Source of the DNA: Planctomycetota bacterium
GTDB taxonomy: Bacteria; Planctomycetota; E44-bin39
Assembly (NCBI GenBank): GCA_004376375.1
Contig: SOJX01000079.1
Span: forward strand, 54,454 to 118,453
DNA length: 64,000 bases
Direction of reading: 5' to 3'
This document shows, in pieces, positions 49,942-63,445 of this stretch. The notes beneath the pieces are model-generated. The model saw only the letters and a program-made list of their open reading frames with translations. It was not told the DNA's origin and did no database searches. Every line of letters begins with the position of its first letter. Within the stretch, counting starts at the first letter, position 1. The translations under genes and the position numbers were made by a program.

Positions 49942-51429
49942 ATGCGCTACCGCATAGGTGTGTTAATCAGCATAACGTTGTTTGCGTTTGTGGTTTCAGG
50001 CTGCGGGGACCCGAGTGAATATTCTCTGCCAATTGATTCCAAGACGGGGAAACCCTACGTCGCCGGCAGGATGTTCACGCAGCAAAAGCCTGAGAAAGAC
50101 AAAGAGGGAGAATATCCGCCGCACAACATTATCGAGCCGGTGAAAGCCTGGCAGTACAAAAGGAAGAAATCCCAGGAAGGCAATCCCGAGTCGGAAGAAA
50201 AAGTCCGCGACCTGGAAGTTGTGGATTACCTGAAACGCTATCGTGGGACTCAGTGGCACCTTGCTGAAAACAGAGACGTTATAGACGATATAACGGGAAT
50301 AAACGAAGGCAAAATCAAGCACATCGAAAACATTTCATATTTCGACACGACCGCTTTAGACTCGGCCGGGCAACCGGATCCGAACGAGGTTTACTACGTC
50401 CACCCCAACCGCCTTGCCGAAAACTCGGCCAAGGTTTTCGTGAACGAGCGGGAAGAAATCCAGAAGCTTTACAGGGACGAGTACCCGAGCGATTTTTACC
50501 TTGACCGCGAAGTAAACAAGAACCGCAAGGCGATGGGGGCCTATGACCCGATAACAAGGCTTAACTGGCCGGAAGAGCTCGAAGCCGGCCTCAAAGACCC
50601 GGACGGACCGGGCGGCACGATAATGAAGAAAACCAGGGAGTTCGACTTTTCCACGGAAGCCGCAAACAGCGATGACCTGAAGTCCGAGTTCTTCAAAGAG
50701 CTGCAGGTGCTTTTCACCAACCTTGCACAGCATATTCGCAACGTTGAAGCGCAGATCGTGCCGTATCCCGATCCGCCTTTCAAGACAAAATCCACATCCG
50801 CTAGGGCCACCGACCTTGAGTCAAACTACAACATAGAGAGCGCGGACAAAATCAAGAGGCTGAACCTTTCGCAGCGAAAGGAATTCGAGCTTTTCGGGCA
50901 TGTTCCTATCGAGGTCGACCCCGGTTCGATGGAGGCACTGGGCATCAAGTACGTCAAGGACATGTTCTTCGAAATATGGAACCAGATTAATGCCGCCCCC
51001 GGCGAGGAGCGCGAGCCACTGGATCCGAAGGAGGAAACGAAGGGCCTCAAGGAGCTGCGGCAAAAACTCAGGCTTGACCCCAAAAGCGGCGACGGAACCC
51101 AGGGCGCGCTTTTTGGGATGAAATCCGAGGTTACGCCGAAAGAGACGGAAGTGATTAATGCAATAAAGAAATTTGTCGACGAGCTGCTGGATGAGGTCCG
51201 TTTGCTCCAGGATCAGAAACAGCTTATCAAGAAATCGGAAATTGACGTGCCTGATATTGAAGGCGAAGAGGACGAGGAGTTTTTTGAAGAAGAGTCTGAA
51301 CCTGGCACGGAAGAAGAAACTGAATCTGACACGGAAGAAGAAACTGAATCTGACGCGGAAGAAGAGGCTGAGTCTGATACGGATGAAACCGAAGGTGAGT
51401 CGGACACGGACGAGAAAAGCGGCGAATAG
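49942..51429 (+). CDS. Hypothetical lipoprotein with an acidic repeat tail
   Basis: AGGAGG RBS, VSGC lipobox; EEETESD(T/A) repeats. Confidence 0.8.
   Translation: MRYRIGVLISITLFAFVVSGCGDPSEYSLPIDSKTGKPYVAGRMFTQQKPEKDKEGEYPPHNIIEPVKAWQYKRKKSQEGNPESEEKVRDLEVVDYLKRYRGTQWHLAENRDVIDDITGINEGKIKHIENISYFDTTALDSAGQPDPNEVYYVHPNRLAENSAKVFVNEREEIQKLYRDEYPSDFYLDREVNKNRKAMGAYDPITRLNWPEELEAGLKDPDGPGGTIMKKTREFDFSTEAANSDDLKSEFFKELQVLFTNLAQHIRNVEAQIVPYPDPPFKTKSTSARATDLESNYNIESADKIKRLNLSQRKEFELFGHVPIEVDPGSMEALGIKYVKDMFFEIWNQINAAPGEEREPLDPKEETKGLKELRQKLRLDPKSGDGTQGALFGMKSEVTPKETEVINAIKKFVDELLDEVRLLQDQKQLIKKSEIDVPDIEGEEDEEFFEEESEPGTEEETESDTEEETESDAEEEAESDTDETEGESDTDEKSGE
51286..51410 (+). repeat. In-frame 24-bp tandem repeat encoding EEETESDx
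   Basis: GAAGAAGAAACTGAATCTGACACG-like units, about 4-5 copies. Confidence 0.8.
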
Positions 51430-52927: not shown

Positions 52928-53121
52928 ATGATGCTTCAGCCTCCGGCTTGTTGTAATAAATCAAATGTATTAAACCCTGTCAACAGTTTAGCTGCACGGA
53001 TGCGCGGTTACATATGGAAAAATCTTGATTTAAACGCTTTGACGTGCTATTCTTAAAGAACGGTAAATGTACGCGGTTGCGGTTTGCGTGCAGGACGGAC
53101 ACATCCCAGAGGAAAACTGAA

Positions 53122-54237
53122 ATGGCTTGGTTCGGAAAGAAAAAATCGCGTGAAGACAGGGTCAAGAAGTTTTCTGAAAGAATGATCGCTGCGCGAGACA
53201 GTGATGATGAACCTGCCGAGAAAAAAGAACAACCCAGAGTATCGGACCAGTTCAATATACCCGACCTGAGTGATGACCTGGATCTTGCCGATGATGTGGA
53301 CCTGTCCAATATCGATCCACAATCCGATCTGGCGGAAACGGCGCTGCCTGACTCGCCCGGTGGCGATGATGGCCGTTCTGCGGCAGATATCCTTAAACAG
53401 TTGAACAGTCCTCAACAGGCGGCCACAGGGCCGGCGATTGACCCATTGGGTATCGGCGACGTTATCGATGATGATCTGGTTATCGATACTCCGGATGATA
53501 AGACCGGTTCTCGCGATCATATAGCCGAGGTGGACCTCGAGCTTGAAGATGATATTGAACTGGATGATCTGGATGACATTGATATAAGCGTGAATTTAAC
53601 GCCTAAAACCGCACCGGTGCCGCCTGCTGCTCCCGTTTCAGCACCTGGTAAAGAGATGAGCGATAACCAGACAAGGATTGGACGCCTGCTTCTGGCCGAA
53701 GGCCCGTTTACCCGTGATGCACTTCGCTCGGAACTTGAAAGTGCGGGAAGGCTGGCGAGCCCGATCGCGCAGGTGCTGTTGAATACCGGGGCTCCGGAGG
53801 AATCGGCGCTGTTTGTGCTACTGCTGAAAAATTACAGAATACCGAAAGTACGGCTCGACGGATTCCGCATTCCTCAGCAGCTTCGGACGGTTATACCGCC
53901 GGACCTTGTGCAAAGATTTCGGATGATTCCCATCGACCTCGTAGGCGATATCCTCTGCATCGCGGTCGAAAACCTGTACACGTTACCTTCCAAGGCGCTA
54001 CTTGAGCTGCGGGAACGGACCGGTTACCGGGTCAAGGTCTTCGCAGGCGATGCGGCAAACGTTTCCCGTCTGCTTGGCTCACCCGCCGCGGGCCGTGTGT
54101 TGAAACCCCGAAAAGTCCGTTTGGACGATCTGGGGGGCCTTGCGCCGATTTCGCCCGAGCCCGGTCATTCTGCTGCCGCTTTTCGATATGGCTATTGCGG
54201 ACCCGGGACGCTCATGCCTGTTCCGGCGAAGCCCTGA
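53122..54237 (+). CDS. Acidic-linker protein with an MshEN/T2SSE_N-like domain and no ATPase
   Basis: RIGRLLLAEG...IAQVLL..G and IP..L..RFRMIPI...GDILCIAV. Confidence 0.6.
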   Translation: MAWFGKKKSREDRVKKFSERMIAARDSDDEPAEKKEQPRVSDQFNIPDLSDDLDLADDVDLSNIDPQSDLAETALPDSPGGDDGRSAADILKQLNSPQQAATGPAIDPLGIGDVIDDDLVIDTPDDKTGSRDHIAEVDLELEDDIELDDLDDIDISVNLTPKTAPVPPAAPVSAPGKEMSDNQTRIGRLLLAEGPFTRDALRSELESAGRLASPIAQVLLNTGAPEESALFVLLLKNYRIPKVRLDGFRIPQQLRTVIPPDLVQRFRMIPIDLVGDILCIAVENLYTLPSKALLELRERTGYRVKVFAGDAANVSRLLGSPAAGRVLKPRKVRLDDLGGLAPISPEPGHSAAAFRYGYCGPGTLMPVPAKP

Positions 54238-54347: not shown

Positions 54348-54902
54348 ATGATTGCCAATGAGATCAAGCCGAACGACGTGCTGCTTATGGACGGAGAGCT
54401 TTACCGCATCACCTCGGTTACCCATATAAAACCGGGCAAGGGCGGCGCATTCGTCAAAGGCAAGAAGAAAAACCTCAAGACGGGGGCCGTTACGGATTAT
54501 TCTTTCCGCTCTGCCGAGAAGGTCGAGAAACCTTTTCTTGAAAAGAAAGGCATGGAGTTCTCCTACCGTGAAGGTGATTTCTTATATTTCATGGATACGG
54601 AGACGTACGAACAGACGCCGATCACAAAGGAATCACTGGGCGACATGGCCCTGTTTCTCGTGGAGGGCGTCGAGGTTAACGCGTTGTATCACGGAACCGA
54701 AATCATCACTATCGACCTGCCGGAGACCGTTGTCCTCGAGATAAAGGAAACCGAGCCCGGCTTCAAGGGGGACACGGCCCAGGGCGGCAACAAGCCGATT
54801 ACATTCGAGACCGGGCTGACATCGAACGGTCCCATGTTTTTGAATATCGGGGACAAAGTCAAGATAGACACCCGGACCGGAGAATATCTCGAGCGGGCAT
54901 AG
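54348..54902 (+). CDS. efp: Translation elongation factor P
   Basis: HIKPGKGGAFV, FMDTETYEQ, PGFKGDTA, ETG, DTRTGEY. Confidence 0.97.
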   Translation: MIANEIKPNDVLLMDGELYRITSVTHIKPGKGGAFVKGKKKNLKTGAVTDYSFRSAEKVEKPFLEKKGMEFSYREGDFLYFMDTETYEQTPITKESLGDMALFLVEGVEVNALYHGTEIITIDLPETVVLEIKETEPGFKGDTAQGGNKPITFETGLTSNGPMFLNIGDKVKIDTRTGEYLERA

Positions 54903-54956
54903 CCGGACTGTTCCGCGGGGAGGAACGTCGACTTCAGGGAAATCCCAGGGTAAACG

Positions 54957-54980
54957 CGGCGCCATACCGGGCGCCGTTTT
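54957..54980 (+). terminator. Possible terminator between efp and the accB-like gene
   Basis: CGGCGCC-ATACCG-GGCGCCG-TTTT. Confidence 0.45.
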
Positions 54981-55010
54981 GCCAGACAGTAAAATTCCGA
55001 ATGTGAGAGG

Positions 55011-55508
55011 ATGGCGATGAAATTCGAATTTGACAAGCTTCGGGAGCTTATCCGGTTCATGGACGAGAACGGCCTCGTCGAGGTAGAGCTTTCCGATTCC
55101 TCGGAGCAGATCCGACTTCGACGACCCGAAATAATGCAATACGAAATCGAGACCGAAACGGAAGATGTGAAAATAAATCCCGCAACCCCCGAGGCGGCCT
55201 CTGAAAAGGCGAAGGAGCCGGCGGCGGAACCTGTGCCGGAGCCGGAACCGGAGCCCGAGGCAGTTGATTTTACAGCCACAATGGTCGGTACGTTCCGCCG
55301 TGCGGCGCCCGGCGGTGAACCGTTTGTCGAAGTCGGCAAAGAGGTAAACCCGAAAACCGTTTTGTGCGTTATCGAGGCCATGTCGGTGCCGAACGAGATA
55401 CCTGCGAAGGTTTCAGGAAGCGTTACAGAAATTCTCGCGGAGGATGGACAGTCGGTGGAGTTTGGAACTCCGCTTTTTCGCATTGCAATATCACCGAAAA
55501 AAGGATAA
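55011..55508 (+). CDS. AccB/BCCP-like protein lacking the biotinylation lysine
   Basis: BCCP architecture (LRELIRFMDENGLVEVEL, Pro/Ala linker, MVGTF.RA..PG.EPFV.VG, EDGQSVEFG.PLF), but IEAMSVPNEI replaces IEAMKxxNEI. Confidence 0.85.
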   Translation: MAMKFEFDKLRELIRFMDENGLVEVELSDSSEQIRLRRPEIMQYEIETETEDVKINPATPEAASEKAKEPAAEPVPEPEPEPEAVDFTATMVGTFRRAAPGGEPFVEVGKEVNPKTVLCVIEAMSVPNEIPAKVSGSVTEILAEDGQSVEFGTPLFRIAISPKKG

Positions 55509-55570
55509 TCAGATTTTCTCCCGAAGGCTCGCAATAACTGCCGTCGGGAGACGCGAACGGGAGGCGTGAA

Positions 55571-56896
55571 GTGTTCGGTCGCATACTGGTTGCAGCTCGC
55601 GGAAAGACGGCATTCAACATAATTCGTACATGCCGCGAACTCGATATTGAAAGCGTTGCCGTTTATGCCGAAAAAGACCGGCAGGCACCCTATTTGAGGC
55701 TCGCCACCGACGTTATCTGTATCGGCCCTCGCAGCGTTTACCAGAATGAGAGCCAGATTCTTGCAGCTGCCGAAATCGGGGACGTTGAGGCTATACATCC
55801 GGGAATCGGGCCGCTCGCGATTAATGCGCACTTTGCTGAAATATGCGAAAGCCATGAACTCGCTTTTGTCGGACCGCCTTCAAAAGTGCTCGCGCGCCTG
55901 ACGAACAAACTGGAGGCGCGACGCTCCGCAGGCGAAATCGATGTTCCGGTCCTGCCTGCAAGCGAGGAGCCGGTAGTGGAGAAAAGCGCATCGCTTGCCA
56001 TTGCCGATGAAATCGGCTATCCCGTTCTGGTGCGGGCTATTGAGACGGGAAGCGGTTTTGGCGTTCGTATTGCGGAGGATGAACAATTACTGGTTGATGC
56101 CCTCACCGCAGCCGCCGGCGACTTGGCCAGGCCTGGCGGAATATATCTGGAAAAGTATCTGCCCAATGCAAGGCATATAGAAGTATGTGTGATTGCAGAC
56201 ACGCACGGCCACGTGGTTTCGCTTGGCGAACGAGACGAGTCGCTTCAACGCGGCCATAGAACTCTGGTCGCGGAAGCCCCGGCCCCGGGGATTGCCGCAC
56301 AGCACAGTAAGGCGATGCAGACGGCAGCGATTGACTTCACCAGGTCCCTGGGTTTCCACGGCGCCGGCTCGGTACAGTTTGTTTTGGATGGGAGCGGGAA
56401 TTTCTATTTCTGCGGATTCAGGCCGGTCATGACCGCGATGCCGAGCGTTACGGAAGCCGTTACGGGCATAGACATGCATTCTCAGGAGCTGCGGATTGCG
56501 TCCGGCGAACCGCTGGAGTTCTCACAGGAAGATGTAAGTATTTCGGGCGCCGCCATAGGATGCAGGATAACTGCCGAAGATCCACAAAAGCGTTTCAGCC
56601 CCACTGGCGGAACACTGTCCCTGTTTTCACCGCCCAGCGGTCGCGGCATCCGCGTCGACACATCCGTCTGGACGGGGATGGAGGTGGAGCCGGGGGCCGA
56701 AGGCGCGCTCGCTCAGATAACGGCCCATCGAATGGAGCGGGGCGAAGCTATTGCGGTCCTTCGAGTCGCCCTTGACGAGATTGTGCTGGACGGCGTGACG
56801 ACCACTCTTCCGCTGGTGCGTGACCTTTTCGGCCACACGCGCTTCGTAAAGGGCGAGGTCGATACGCATTTTGTCGAGGAGTATTTCGCCGGGTAA
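55571..56896 (+). CDS. AccC/biotin carboxylase-like protein with a degenerate active site
   Basis: Full-length BC fold (AIHPG, EKYL..ARHIEV, CRITAEDP, G.GIRVD, GVTTT), but catalytic motifs are replaced. Confidence 0.85.
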   Translation: MFGRILVAARGKTAFNIIRTCRELDIESVAVYAEKDRQAPYLRLATDVICIGPRSVYQNESQILAAAEIGDVEAIHPGIGPLAINAHFAEICESHELAFVGPPSKVLARLTNKLEARRSAGEIDVPVLPASEEPVVEKSASLAIADEIGYPVLVRAIETGSGFGVRIAEDEQLLVDALTAAAGDLARPGGIYLEKYLPNARHIEVCVIADTHGHVVSLGERDESLQRGHRTLVAEAPAPGIAAQHSKAMQTAAIDFTRSLGFHGAGSVQFVLDGSGNFYFCGFRPVMTAMPSVTEAVTGIDMHSQELRIASGEPLEFSQEDVSISGAAIGCRITAEDPQKRFSPTGGTLSLFSPPSGRGIRVDTSVWTGMEVEPGAEGALAQITAHRMERGEAIAVLRVALDEIVLDGVTTTLPLVRDLFGHTRFVKGEVDTHFVEEYFAG

Positions 56897-62959: not shown

Positions 62960-63445
62960 TTACCATCCCGGCGTGCTGGTGTCGGGGCCTTTGAGCTGTT
63001 CCCATTCCGCGCTTGATATTTTCCATTCACCTTCGATCTTGCGAAACCCGGTCTTCATCTGGTAGGCATGGTCGCCTTTCAGCCAGCCTTCTTTCGGGAA
63101 GTTTGCGTCGAGCCGGAATTCTGCAATTGCCGTTTCGCCTGAAATATTGATATCAAGGCCGGTAATAACAAGCGTGGGTTTTCCGCCTCGTTCCCAGGCG
63201 ACGTTTATTAATCCGGGAGTTTGCCCGCGGTTTGCGCCTGCCGAGCAGGTAAAGTCTTTTGTCAGGTGGTCGGTTATAAAGACTGATCTGGGCCTGCTTC
63301 CGGACTCAATGATCTCCATGCATTCTTCCAGTACGGCCCGGATTCGGTCTTCCTCGGTTGTGAAGATGCACGAAATCCCGGCGTAGATGATGTAGGTCAG
63401 GATCGAAATCCCGGCGATTATAAGCACGATGCGTTTCAGGTTCAT
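62960..63445 (-). CDS. Membrane-anchored NTF2/SnoaL-like protein
   Basis: N-terminal TM, TEEDRIR, C-terminal FRKIEGEWKISSA. Confidence 0.6.
   Translation of the reverse strand: MNLKRIVLIIAGISILTYIIYAGISCIFTTEEDRIRAVLEECMEIIESGSRPRSVFITDHLTKDFTCSAGANRGQTPGLINVAWERGGKPTLVITGLDINISGETAIAEFRLDANFPKEGWLKGDHAYQMKTGFRKIEGEWKISSAEWEQLKGPDTSTPGW

What the first reader, a model, noticed from the sequence alone, without database searches (positions are those of the whole stretch)
55011..56896. Concerted pseudo-enzyme pair: a non-biotinylatable AccB and a catalytically dead AccC at the efp locus
Seen: both ORFs are intact and full length, in the usual efp-accB-accC order. The BCCP motif is EAMS (TCG at 55383..55385, at least two substitutions from a Lys codon, so not a single miscall). 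In the carboxylase, NRGEIA>ARGKTA, HPGYGFLSEN>HPGIGPLAIN, KASGGGGG>RAIETGSG, HQK>HRT, VEF>VQF and FIEMNTRIQVEH>FCGFRPVMTAMP. Established: E. coli BCCP K122 carries biotin, and BC K238, E276, E288, N290, R292 and E296 handle Mg/ATP, bicarbonate and catalysis. Residues matching K116, E201/K202, H209, Q233, H236 and R338 appear retained, and K159 is R. Plant BADC proteins are lysine-less BCCP paralogues that regulate ACCase. Inference: both subunits lost their chemistry together without frameshifts, which suggests a repurposed non-catalytic complex (nucleotide sensor, scaffold or ACCase regulator) rather than random decay.
Basis: partly seen in the sequence, partly recalled or inferred. Interest (0 to 1): 0.85.

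Follow-up and report, generated by a model that had tools for sequence, protein, structure and literature searches.

The report
Conserved dead biotin carboxylase and carrier pair
A deep-branching sediment planctomycete keeps its only biotin carboxylase and biotin carrier genes intact and conserved although both have lost the residues needed for their chemistry, which suggests a non-catalytic role and an ATP-free way of making malonyl-CoA.

Summary
The carrier (55017/55011-55508) has EAMS in place of the biotinyl-lysine motif. The carboxylase (55571-56896) keeps the fold but has lost the glycine loop, K238, E276, E288, N290, R292 and E296.

It is not decay. Four carboxylase and five carrier sequences from metagenomes (72-87% and 54-88% identical) share the same replacements, and no intermediates were found. 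On one relative's contig the carboxylase is 75% identical, against 77% for EF-P. Against a 99%-identical strain the pair shows 9 synonymous and 5 conservative non-synonymous changes, pN/pS 0.18.

The pair is the only carboxylase and only AccB-type carrier in a 93.8%-complete genome. That genome keeps bona fide accA, accD, birA and fabF, and also has a Na+-pumping methylmalonyl-CoA decarboxylase and 5S/12S carboxyltransferases with lysine-bearing carriers.

Seven of 150 other Planctomycetota genomes have no carboxylase at all, yet all seven keep accA and accD and have the Na+ decarboxylase.

Best reading: a selected, non-catalytic scaffold or regulator of the carboxyltransferase, with carboxybiotin supplied without ATP. 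The function itself is untested.

The parts
54348..54902 (+). efp (elongation factor P), the upstream neighbour. It serves here as the yardstick for sequence conservation.
   Evidence: TIGR00038 scores 214.8 bits against a cut-off of 185.8. The orthologue P0197 on the relative's 107,761-nt contig is 77% identical.
54949..54983 (+). Stable GC-rich hairpin followed by TTTT, between efp and the carrier gene. It may be a terminator or attenuator.
   Evidence: Folding gives -23.5 kcal/mol, z = -3.0, with 1 of 200 shuffles folding as well. The consensus terminator scan did not call it, because only 4 T follow the stem.
55017..55508 (+). AccB* : a BCCP-like protein without the biotinyl lysine. The alternative start is 55011. 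It has an N-terminal BC-binding-type segment, a Pro/Ala/Glu linker and a biotinyl-domain fold.
   Evidence: PF00364 scores 63.8 bits. TIGR00531 scores 107.4 bits, below its cut-off of 115.2. It aligns to E. coli BCCP 4hr7_B over residues 6-156. The SD sequence GAGAGG lies 6 nt before 55017.
55383..55385 (+). TCG, the Ser codon at the position of the biotinylated Lys (E. coli K122).
   Evidence: Of 75 AccB homologues, 70 have K at this column and 5 have S, and those 5 are exactly the clade members. No difference is listed at this codon in the independent X2 contig, which covers it.
55571..56896 (+). AccC* : a full-length biotin-carboxylase fold without the catalytic residues (GTG start).
   Evidence: Pfam finds Biotin_carb_N, CPSase_L_D2 and Biotin_carb_C. 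TIGR00514 scores 409.8 bits against a cut-off of 626.5. The AF2 model has pLDDT 91.5 and pTM 0.91, and Foldseek gives TM 0.95 to BC-ADP structures. The SD sequence GGGAGG lies 5 nt before the GTG.
55592..55612 (+). AARGKTA, replacing the canonical ANRGEIA (N9A and E12K equivalents).
   Evidence: E12>K is fixed in all 4 clade members, and N9>A/T differs from the canonical residue in all 4.
55796..55825 (+). HPGIGPLAIN, replacing HPGYGFLAEN. The Y82, F84 and E87 equivalents are lost.
56033..56068 (+). RAIETGSGFGVR, replacing K159-A-x-GGGGRGMR. This is a degenerate glycine-rich ATP-phosphate loop.
   Evidence: K>R, G>T, G>S and M>V are each fixed in all 4 members.
56255..56263 (+). H-R-T, replacing H236-Q-K238. 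H236 is kept and K238 is lost.
56375..56377 (+). Gln at the E276 position, a Mg/ATP ligand.
56408..56443 (+). FCGFRPVMTAMP, replacing FIE288-M-N290-T-R292-IQV-E296-H. The Mg ligands, the bicarbonate site and the catalytic base are all lost.
   Evidence: E>G, N>R, V>A, E>M and H>P are fixed in all 4 members.

Best explanation
These are the ancestral accB-accC genes of a lone, deep-branching Planctomycetota lineage. Both proteins lost their chemistry in one burst of change. The carrier cannot take biotin, and the carboxylase cannot ligate Mg-ATP, bind bicarbonate or deprotonate it. Since then both have been held under purifying selection as a non-catalytic pair.

Shown:
- the losses themselves;
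- their conservation across the clade;
- selection on the pair;
- that this is the sole BC and AccB-type gene in the assembly;
- that accA, accD, birA and fabF are intact.

Inferred, step 1. ATP-driven biotin carboxylation has become dispensable. Carboxybiotin for AccA/AccD would come from the lineage's other biotin enzymes. Candidates are a 5S OadA/PycB-type carboxyltransferase fused to a lysine-bearing carrier, a 12S or MmdA-type carboxyltransferase, and a Na+-translocating decarboxylase with its own 72-aa carrier. They would act by transcarboxylation from oxaloacetate or methylmalonyl-CoA, or by running the Na+ pump backwards.

Inferred, step 2. The dead pair survives for the non-catalytic work that BC and BCCP already do in the E. 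coli holoenzyme. There the BC dimer binds the AccD N-terminus and the AccA N-terminal helices, and the BCCP N-terminus binds BC. The pair would therefore be a scaffold or regulator of the carboxyltransferase, possibly still binding a nucleotide.

My odds: selected non-catalytic pair 0.8; carboxybiotin from an ATP-independent route 0.5; scaffold or regulator of AccAD specifically 0.35.
For: LOSSES. See the observation check. Both proteins score below the NCBIfam equivalog cut-offs, 107.4 against 115.2 and 409.8 against 626.5. AccA (465.8 against 319.3) and AccD (379.9 against 317.45) score above theirs.

FOLD KEPT. The AF2 model has pLDDT 91.5 and pTM 0.91, and TM is 0.95 to BC-ADP crystal structures.

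CLADE.
- Among the best 120 listed of 3268 hits (8000 candidates scored), the closest are 87, 75 and 72% identical. The next is 47% or less.
- All four share the replacements.
- Of 128 columns that are at least 97% conserved in 116 canonical AccC, 37 differ in all four members, and 28 of those are fixed to one new residue.
- A profile of the four, run against 1.84 billion representatives, finds one cluster at 902 bits. The next hit (468 bits, P0316) has canonical motifs.
- All five AccB-like members have EAMSVPN, and 70 of 75 homologues have K at that column.
- A quick tree places the clade at SH-aLRT 100. Its stem is about 2 changes per site, while branches inside the clade are 0.08-0.35. The tree used 43 of the 120 sequences: the 4 clade members plus every third canonical one.

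SELECTION.
- Against the 99%-identical X2 contig: accB* 4 synonymous and 0 non-synonymous, accC* 5 and 5 (V/I, S/T, I/V, I/L, G/S), efp 5 and 3.
- pN/pS for the pair is 0.18, one-sided binomial P = 0.0019. Table 3 listed 22 of the 25 differences, and those 22 were classified.
- On one relative's contig EF-P is 77%, AccC* 75% and AccB* 57-61% identical.
- Under substitution-only neutral simulation the frame stays open in 12.8%, 1.0% and 1.0% of runs at 87, 75 and 72% identity for accC*. For accB* it stays open in 12% and 3.7% of runs at 73 and 55%.
- Both genes have good SD sequences.

ORTHOLOGY. accB lies directly upstream of accC in 28 of 29 canonical Planctomycetota loci.

SOLE COPY. The TIGR00514 scan of the genome's own assembly gives one hit at 409 bits and the rest at 43 bits or less. 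Local tblastn with 3 canonical AccC and 3 canonical AccB finds only this locus, plus ATP-grasp enzymes at 25% identity or less.

REST OF THE PATHWAY. Present: accA, accD, birA, fabF, a 652-aa OadA/PycB-like protein ending in ...EAMKMQN, two MmdA-type carboxyltransferases, a 72-aa carrier with AMKV, and a Na+ decarboxylase beta subunit. birA sits beside methylmalonyl-CoA mutase, an epimerase and a 12S-type carboxyltransferase.

PRECEDENT IN THE PHYLUM.
- Of 150 other genomes at least 90% complete, 7 have no BC at E <= 1e-40.
- All 7 of 7 have accA over its cut-off and accD over its cut-off.
- The 2 of 2 tested have fabF.
- All 7 of 7 have the Na+ decarboxylase beta subunit, against 25 of 143 genomes with BC. 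Fisher P = 1e-5. Counting one genome per family (4 families) gives about 0.002, and kin are not independent.

SCAFFOLD LEAD.
- In E. coli ACC tubes, AccD residues 2-23 plus the Zn domain bind the BC dimer interface and BCCP. AccA N-terminal helices contact the BC C-terminus. BC dimerisation mutants are active but do not support growth (PMC11160672, sections 6, 7 and 9 read).
- G000 AccD keeps the N-terminal motif and the Zn ribbon.
- R19 and E23 of BC are kept. That they are dimer-interface residues is recalled; PDB titles name an E23R mutant.

COMPLEX PREDICTION, AccC* with AccB*: weak support.
- Score 0.60, best of 3 controls 0.00.
- The mark was reached by 58 of 80 solved complexes and 2 of 110 mismatched pairs. 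At 0.60 or under it was reached by only 7 of those 80 and by both mismatches that passed.
- The runs agree in at least 40% of contacts, and the partner's pLDDT is at least 64.
- A like complex (4HR7) is solved, so the pass may come from memory.

NUCLEOTIDE LEAD. Of 7 adenosine-side residues, 6 are identical and 1 is K>R. Of 7 Mg, bicarbonate or base residues, 0 are kept (Fisher P = 0.002). Apart from E296 and R338, the residue roles are recalled. Those two come from the introduction of bioRxiv 10.1101/2024.04.30.591959 (passage read).
Against: - No biochemical datum exists. Loss of activity and loss of biotinylation are inferred from residues.
- No RNA or protein evidence of expression.
- The genome is 93.8% complete in 157 contigs, so a canonical accBC in the missing part is not excluded. 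The relatives' genomes could not be inspected.
- The selection test at DNA level rests on 14 differences to a single strain contig. No DNA of the 72-87% relatives was obtained, so there is no between-species dN/dS.
- Seven BC-less genomes have dropped both genes altogether, so the carboxyltransferase can evidently do without a BC/BCCP scaffold. This weakens the scaffold reading.
- The AccD N-terminal motif is also largely kept in 3 of the 7 BC-less genomes (G014, G050, G134). Its retention in G000 is therefore weak evidence.
- Nothing links the pair physically or genomically to accA, accD, the OadA-like gene or the Mmd genes. These lie on other contigs.
- The stable hairpin after efp could lower transcription of the pair.
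- The complex prediction is weak and may reflect memory of 4HR7.
Confidence: 0.6

Rival explanations
1. BADC-like accessory. A canonical accBC exists in the unassembled part of the genome, and this pair is a diverged negative regulator that competes with the active BC/BCCP.
For: The genome is 93.8% complete in 157 contigs. Many Planctomycetota carry 2-5 BC homologues. Plant BADCs are lysine-less BCCP relatives that regulate ACCase; I saw the abstracts in the search listing (for example PMC12706156), and the rest is recalled.
Against: The pair sits where the orthologue sits, since accB-accC adjacency holds in 28 of 29 canonical loci. No second BC domain or AccB-type fragment was found, even at contig ends. 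Both missing genes would have to fall in the 6% gap. Seven BC-less genomes show that the phylum can live without BC. No dead BC partner has been described for BADC.
Confidence: 0.1
2. Neofunctionalised module unrelated to ACC. AccC* would be a nucleotide- or metabolite-binding sensor, or an ATP-grasp enzyme with new chemistry. AccB* would be its adaptor, acting on targets other than AccA/AccD. Possible examples are operon autoregulation through the AccB N-terminus, or PII binding.
For: The replacements are fixed and conserved, not random: 28 of 37 changed columns share one new residue. Adenosine-side residues are kept while Mg and catalytic residues are lost. In E. coli the AccB N-terminus represses the accBC operon, and BCCP is sequestered by GlnB (PMC11160672, section 9 read). 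There is no genomic link to accA or accD.
Against: Without E276, E288 and N290 an ATP-grasp reaction is unlikely. No new partner gene is conserved beside the pair, whose neighbours are efp and a histidine kinase on the opposite strand. With only four sequences no new functional site can be defined.
Confidence: 0.2
3. Pseudogenes in slow decay, or an assembly or sequencing artefact.
For: Catalytic residues are lost in both genes. Both score below the curated family cut-offs. No RNA evidence exists.
Against: Frames are open in 4 and 5 independent sequences down to 72% and 54% identity. Neutral simulation keeps the frame open in about 1% of runs at 72-75% identity. pN/pS is 0.18, P = 0.002. AccC* is as conserved as EF-P, 75% against 77%. 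An independent contig from another study carries the same motifs and has no gaps.
Confidence: 0.04

Closest known systems
Biotin carboxylase AccC of heteromeric acetyl-CoA carboxylase (E. coli or P. aeruginosa BC; PDB 1bnc, 2c00, 3g8c)
   Same: Full-length three-domain fold, with TM 0.95 and 35-39% identity. The gene lies directly after accB. K116, E201, K202, H209, Q233, H236 and R338 are retained, and so are R19 and E23.
   Different: The Gly-rich loop is degenerate. The equivalents of K238, E276, E288, N290, R292, Q294 and E296, and of Y82, are replaced. It scores 409.8 bits against the 626.5 cut-off. A stem of about 2 changes per site separates it from every canonical sequence.
Biotin carboxyl carrier protein AccB (E. 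coli BCCP; PDB 4hr7_B, 1bdo)
   Same: An N-terminal BC-binding-type segment, a Pro/Ala-rich linker and a C-terminal biotinyl-domain fold. It aligns over residues 6-156.
   Different: EAMSVPNE stands in place of EAMKMMNQ, so there is no lysine to biotinylate. The two residues after that position have also changed and are fixed in the clade. It scores below the equivalog cut-off.
Plant BADC proteins (biotin attachment domain-containing; lysine-less BCCP paralogues)
   Same: A BCCP-like protein without the biotinyl lysine that is conserved rather than decaying.
   Different: BADCs are extra paralogues beside active BCCP and BC, and they modulate an active enzyme. I saw the abstracts in the listing; the rest is recalled. 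Here the carrier is the only AccB-type gene, its BC partner is dead as well, and no active BC was found in the assembly. No BADC sequence was fetched or compared.
Biotin-dependent transcarboxylase and Na+-translocating decarboxylases (12S/5S/1.3S; OadAB, MmdABCD)
   Same: These enzymes load biotin with CO2 without ATP or BC, using a carboxyltransferase and a small carrier. The genome encodes such parts.
   Different: None is known to feed the AccA/AccD carboxyltransferase. The link to AccAD here is inference.

Membership tests
AccC biotin carboxylase (TIGR00514 equivalog) | Three-domain BC/ATP-grasp fold (Biotin_carb_N, CPSase_L_D2, Biotin_carb_C) | tested here: met
   Pfam scores are 105.5, 152.4 and 91.9 bits. 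The AF2 model has pLDDT 91.5, and TM is 0.95 to BC structures.
AccC biotin carboxylase (TIGR00514 equivalog) | Score above the curated equivalog cut-off | tested here: not met
   409.8 bits against 626.5. NF006367 scores 429.8 against 597. In the phylum sample 132 of 151 genomes have a match over the cut-off.
AccC biotin carboxylase (TIGR00514 equivalog) | Mg-ATP ligands E276, E288 and N290, and an intact glycine-rich loop | tested here: not met
   The residues are Q, G and R, and the loop reads ETGSGF. All are fixed in the 4 clade members. The roles of these residues are recalled.
AccC biotin carboxylase (TIGR00514 equivalog) | Bicarbonate and catalytic residues K238, R292 and E296 (the base) | tested here: not met
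   The residues are T, V (I in one member) and M. The role of E296 is taken from bioRxiv 10.1101/2024.04.30.591959 (passage read).
AccC biotin carboxylase (TIGR00514 equivalog) | R338, which stabilises the biotin enolate | tested here: met
   Arg is retained at window residue 332 and is invariant in alignments A1 and A3.
AccB / BCCP (TIGR00531 equivalog) | Biotinyl-domain fold | tested here: met
   PF00364 scores 63.8 bits over residues 86-158.
AccB / BCCP (TIGR00531 equivalog) | Biotinylated lysine in the (A/V)MK(M/L/V) motif | tested here: not met
   The residue is Ser, codon TCG at 55383-55385. The column holds K in 70 homologues and S in 5.
AccB / BCCP (TIGR00531 equivalog) | Score above the curated cut-off | tested here: not met
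   107.4 bits against 115.2.
AccB / BCCP (TIGR00531 equivalog) | Binds the BC subunit through its N-terminal segment | tested here: inconclusive
   The N-terminal segment aligns to 4hr7_B. The complex prediction gives weak support: 0.60 against a best control of 0.00, and it may reflect memory of 4HR7.
Plant BADC-type regulator | BCCP-like fold without the biotinyl lysine | tested here: met
Plant BADC-type regulator | Acts beside an active BCCP and BC in the same organism | tested here: not met
   No other BC or AccB-type gene was found in the 93.8%-complete assembly. Absence from the uncovered 6% cannot be shown.
Plant BADC-type regulator | Common descent with the plant BADC clade | not tested
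   No BADC sequence was fetched. The nearest relatives found are bacterial AccB proteins.
Pseudoenzyme (general sense) | Homologue of an active enzyme that lacks catalytic residues yet is kept by purifying selection | tested here: met
   for the losses. for selection. Catalytic inactivity itself cannot be tested with these tools.

The most novel reading that the evidence does not exclude
A biotin-carboxylase-independent acetyl-CoA carboxylase. In this lineage, and in the Planctomycetota that have lost BC outright, AccA/AccD would take carboxybiotin from a decarboxylase- or transcarboxylase-type carrier. That carrier would be loaded from oxaloacetate or methylmalonyl-CoA, or by a reversed Na+ pump. 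Malonyl-CoA would then be made without ATP. The dead BC*/BCCP* pair would be the retained docking scaffold, perhaps nucleotide-gated, that lets the foreign carrier reach the carboxyltransferase.
Probability: 0.2. Interest if true: 0.88.

Novelty: new variant of a known kind. Interest (0 to 1): 0.72.

Why it matters
Acetyl-CoA carboxylase is taken to be the universal, ATP-spending entry to bacterial fatty-acid synthesis. Here a free-living 5.7-Mb bacterium keeps the carboxyltransferase half and FabF, but its only biotin carboxylase and carrier are chemically dead and still under selection. Several related lineages have no biotin carboxylase at all.

If this holds, it matters in three ways:
1. 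It is the first bacterial pseudo-BC/pseudo-BCCP pair. It would be a natural separation of the structural and regulatory roles of BC/BCCP from their catalysis.
2. It points to an energy-saving, BC-independent route to malonyl-CoA in anaerobic fermenters. That route can be tested by reconstitution.
3. It warns that genome annotation calling 'accB/accC present' can be wrong about function.

I found no description of such a pair in the held literature. Subscription journals and supplementary files were not searchable.

Tried and rejected
DNA of close relatives. So no DNA of the 72-87% relatives was obtained, and no between-species dN/dS could be computed. I used strain-level differences from laid contigs instead.

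GTDB relatives. The genome is the only species of its class among those held, so the genome search gave only phylum-level kin.

Expression. No RNA holder was listed. The one RNA run laid (X11, contigs, from the same study as X2) placed 0 records on the stretch. This is no evidence either way.

Runs X3 and X4. They hold only short pieces. One 278-nt X4 contig over 54863-55140 has 8 differences, 4 of them listed (1 synonymous and 3 non-synonymous in accB*), at depth 2.6. That is too little to use.

Other low-scoring BC hits in the phylum sample (G062, G034, G059, G049, G145). They turned out to be cut at contig ends or to be fused long forms, not further dead copies.

P0316, the second-best hit to the clade profile. 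It has canonical motifs and is not an intermediate.

AccD N-terminal motif as a test of co-evolution with BC. The motif is kept in G000 and has diverged in 4 BC-less genomes (G026, G075, G092, G056). It is also largely kept in 3 others (G014, G050, G134), so the test is inconclusive. In 4 of 35 loci my pattern found no Zn-ribbon ORF, and those were left out.

Neighbouring genes in the window. They are corrinoid adenosyltransferase, a chorismate-binding enzyme, a class IV aminotransferase, a GAF histidine kinase, a metallo-beta-lactamase-fold protein and a TPR protein. They give no functional link.

Promoter and terminator scan. It found one promoter-like site before efp, which is no more than shuffles give.

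Literature. Ten searches found no bacterial dead BC or lysine-less AccB, and no BC-independent ACC. Papers giving the roles of BC residues were mostly not held, so most residue roles are recalled. The tree is the quick tree, because the careful search did not finish.

Full report
WHAT IS THERE. Three co-directional ORFs lie at 54348-56896: efp, a BCCP-like gene (55011 or, more likely, 55017 to 55508) and a biotin-carboxylase-like gene (55571-56896). Pfam recognises the biotinyl domain and all three BC domains. NCBIfam places both proteins nearest to AccB and AccC but below the curated equivalog cut-offs, at 107.4 against 115.2 bits and 409.8 against 626.5 bits. EF-P passes its own cut-off. Both genes have a good Shine-Dalgarno sequence at proper spacing.

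- Against E. coli BCCP (4hr7_B, 1bdo_A) the carrier reads IEAMSVPNE where the enzyme has VEAMKMMNQ. The Ser codon is TCG at 55383-55385.
- A contig from a run of a different study (X2, 11,952 nt) covers the whole stretch at 99% identity without gaps. None of its listed differences falls in the motifs, so the changes are not miscalls of one assembly.

NOT DECAY BUT A CONSERVED CLADE.
- The word-indexed search of 5.8 billion proteins returned three close relatives of the carboxylase, at 87, 75 and 72% identity. After them comes a jump to canonical Planctomycetota AccC at 47% or less.
- All four sequences share ARGK, HPGIG, (E/G)TGSGF, RGHRT, VQF and FCGFR..AMP.
- Of 128 columns at least 97% conserved in 116 canonical sequences, 37 differ in all four, and 28 of those are fixed to one new residue. 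Another 14 differ in some members and 77 are unchanged.
- A profile of the four, run over 1.84 billion representatives, finds one cluster at 902 bits. The next hit, at 468 bits, has intact motifs, so there are no intermediates.
- The carrier has four relatives at 54-88% identity, all with EAMSVPN. The other 70 of 75 homologues have Lys.
- A quick ML tree puts the clade at SH-aLRT 100. Its stem is about 2 changes per site, against 0.08-0.35 inside the clade. The tree used 43 sequences, and the careful search did not finish.

This pattern is a burst of change followed by constraint.

SELECTION.
- Three proteins lie on the relative's 107,761-nt contig. EF-P is 77%, AccC-like 75% and AccB-like 57-61% identical to the window's.
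- In six canonical pairs EF-P is 43-48% and AccC 57-64% identical. The dead carboxylase is therefore somewhat less constrained than a working one, but about as constrained as EF-P.
- Against the X2 strain contig the pair shows 9 synonymous and 5 non-synonymous differences, all conservative. pN/pS is 0.18 and P = 0.0019, while efp gives 0.18. Only 22 of the 25 differences were listed and classified.
- Substitution-only neutral simulations keep the carboxylase frame open in about 1% of runs at 72-75% identity. Indels were ignored, so this is conservative.

GENOMIC SETTING.
- The genome has 5.68 Mb in 157 contigs and is 93.8% complete. It is the only species of its class among those held, and its kin are Planctomycetota.
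- The pair is the only BC and the only AccB-type carrier in the assembly.
- It lies in the orthologous arrangement: accB sits directly before accC in 28 of 29 canonical loci of the phylum.
- The carboxyltransferase half is intact. AccA scores 465.8 against 319.3, and AccD scores 379.9 against 317.45 with its Zn ribbon.
- BirA and FabF are present, along with several further ketosynthase genes.
- Other biotin enzymes exist that need no BC:
  - a 652-aa OadA/PycB-type 5S carboxyltransferase fused to a lysine-bearing carrier;
  - an MmdA-type carboxyltransferase followed by a small membrane protein, a 72-aa carrier (AMKV) and a Na+-decarboxylase beta subunit;
  - a second 12S-type carboxyltransferase in a birA - methylmalonyl-CoA mutase - epimerase cluster.

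A WIDER PATTERN.
- Among 150 other Planctomycetota genomes at least 90% complete, 7 have no BC at E <= 1e-40.
- All 7 have accA and accD above cut-off.
- The two tested have fabF.
- All 7 have the Na+-decarboxylase beta subunit, against 25 of 143 BC-containing genomes. They fall in 4 families, and kin are not independent.

So in this phylum the carboxyltransferase persists where ATP-dependent biotin carboxylation is gone, and only in lineages that have decarboxylase-type biotin enzymes. The window's lineage fits this functionally, yet it keeps the two proteins.

MECHANISM.

Shown: the loss of the lysine and of the Mg, bicarbonate and base residues; retention of the fold; conservation; and selection.

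Inferred, step 1. Carboxybiotin for AccAD comes from an ATP-independent source, either transcarboxylation from oxaloacetate or methylmalonyl-CoA or a reversed Na+ pump. The latter is recalled from Dimroth and Hilpert 1984, which I did not see here.

Inferred, step 2. The pair is kept for non-catalytic roles.
- The E. coli ACC tube structure gives a concrete lead. AccD residues 2-23 plus the Zn domain bind the BC dimer interface and BCCP. AccA N-terminal helices touch the BC C-terminus. Dimerisation-deficient BC is active but does not support growth (PMC11160672, sections 6, 7 and 9 read).
- G000 AccD keeps its N-terminal motif, and BC R19 and E23 are kept.
- The complex prediction for AccC* with AccB* gives weak support. 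The score is 0.60 with a best control of 0.00. The mark was reached by 58 of 80 solved complexes and 2 of 110 mismatched pairs. At 0.60 or under it was reached by only 7 of the 80 and by both mismatches. The runs agree in at least 40% of contacts, and the partner's pLDDT is at least 64. It may reflect memory of 4HR7.
- The adenosine-side residues are kept while the Mg and catalytic residues are lost (6 of 7 against 0 of 7). This fits a nucleotide-binding pseudoenzyme, but most residue roles are recalled.

AGAINST THE SCAFFOLD READING. Seven lineages dispense with both genes. The AccD motif is also mostly kept in three of them. The pair is not linked to any partner gene.

COMPARISON AND NOVELTY. 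The carrier works like a plant BADC in that it is a lysine-less BCCP. It fails the BADC context test, because no active BC or BCCP stands beside it. The carboxylase has no described counterpart that I could find (subscription journals and supplements were not searchable). I file it as a new variant of a known kind: pseudoenzyme derivatives of ACC subunits.

Two things are unusual. Both partners died together, and they are the organism's only copies while the downstream half of the enzyme lives on.

LIMITS. There is no expression or biochemical evidence. There is no DNA of the deeper relatives. The genome is incomplete. The tree is the quick one.

Noticed in passing
G014, G026, G050, G056, G075, G092, G134 (handles): Seven of 150 sampled Planctomycetota genomes (at least 90% complete) have no biotin carboxylase domain at all. 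All seven keep accA and accD above cut-off and all carry a Na+-translocating decarboxylase beta subunit. This suggests a BC-independent way of feeding the ACC carboxyltransferase.
   Followed up: partly
window 54949-54983: A stable hairpin (-23.5 kcal/mol, z = -3.0) followed by TTTT lies between efp and the carrier gene. It may be a terminator or attenuator that uncouples the pair from efp transcription.
   Followed up: partly
G000 contig C25:59082-72916: A cluster of six or seven ketosynthase-like (FabF-related) genes lies side by side, scoring 348.7, 344, 325.9 and 225.3 bits plus weaker pieces. It suggests a polyketide, polyunsaturated or other unusual lipid pathway that would also need malonyl units.
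   Followed up: no
G000 contig C48:56904-62252: birA is directly followed by a methylmalonyl-CoA mutase large subunit, an epimerase-like glyoxalase-fold protein and a 12S or MmdA-type carboxyltransferase. The biotin ligase is thus embedded in the succinate-propionate pathway.
   Followed up: partly
G056:C34:19978-20946: In one BC-less genome the accA match lies in a 940-aa open frame, which may be a fused or extended AccA. Its AccD lacks the usual N-terminal motif.
   Followed up: no
window 53044-54237: The ORF upstream of efp has a long acidic low-complexity N-terminal half and a C-terminal MshEN domain, scoring 28.2 bits against a cut-off of 23.1.
   Followed up: no
window 49942-51429 and 62960-63445: Two ORFs, of 495 aa and 161 aa, have no Pfam match at E <= 1e-4.
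   Followed up: no
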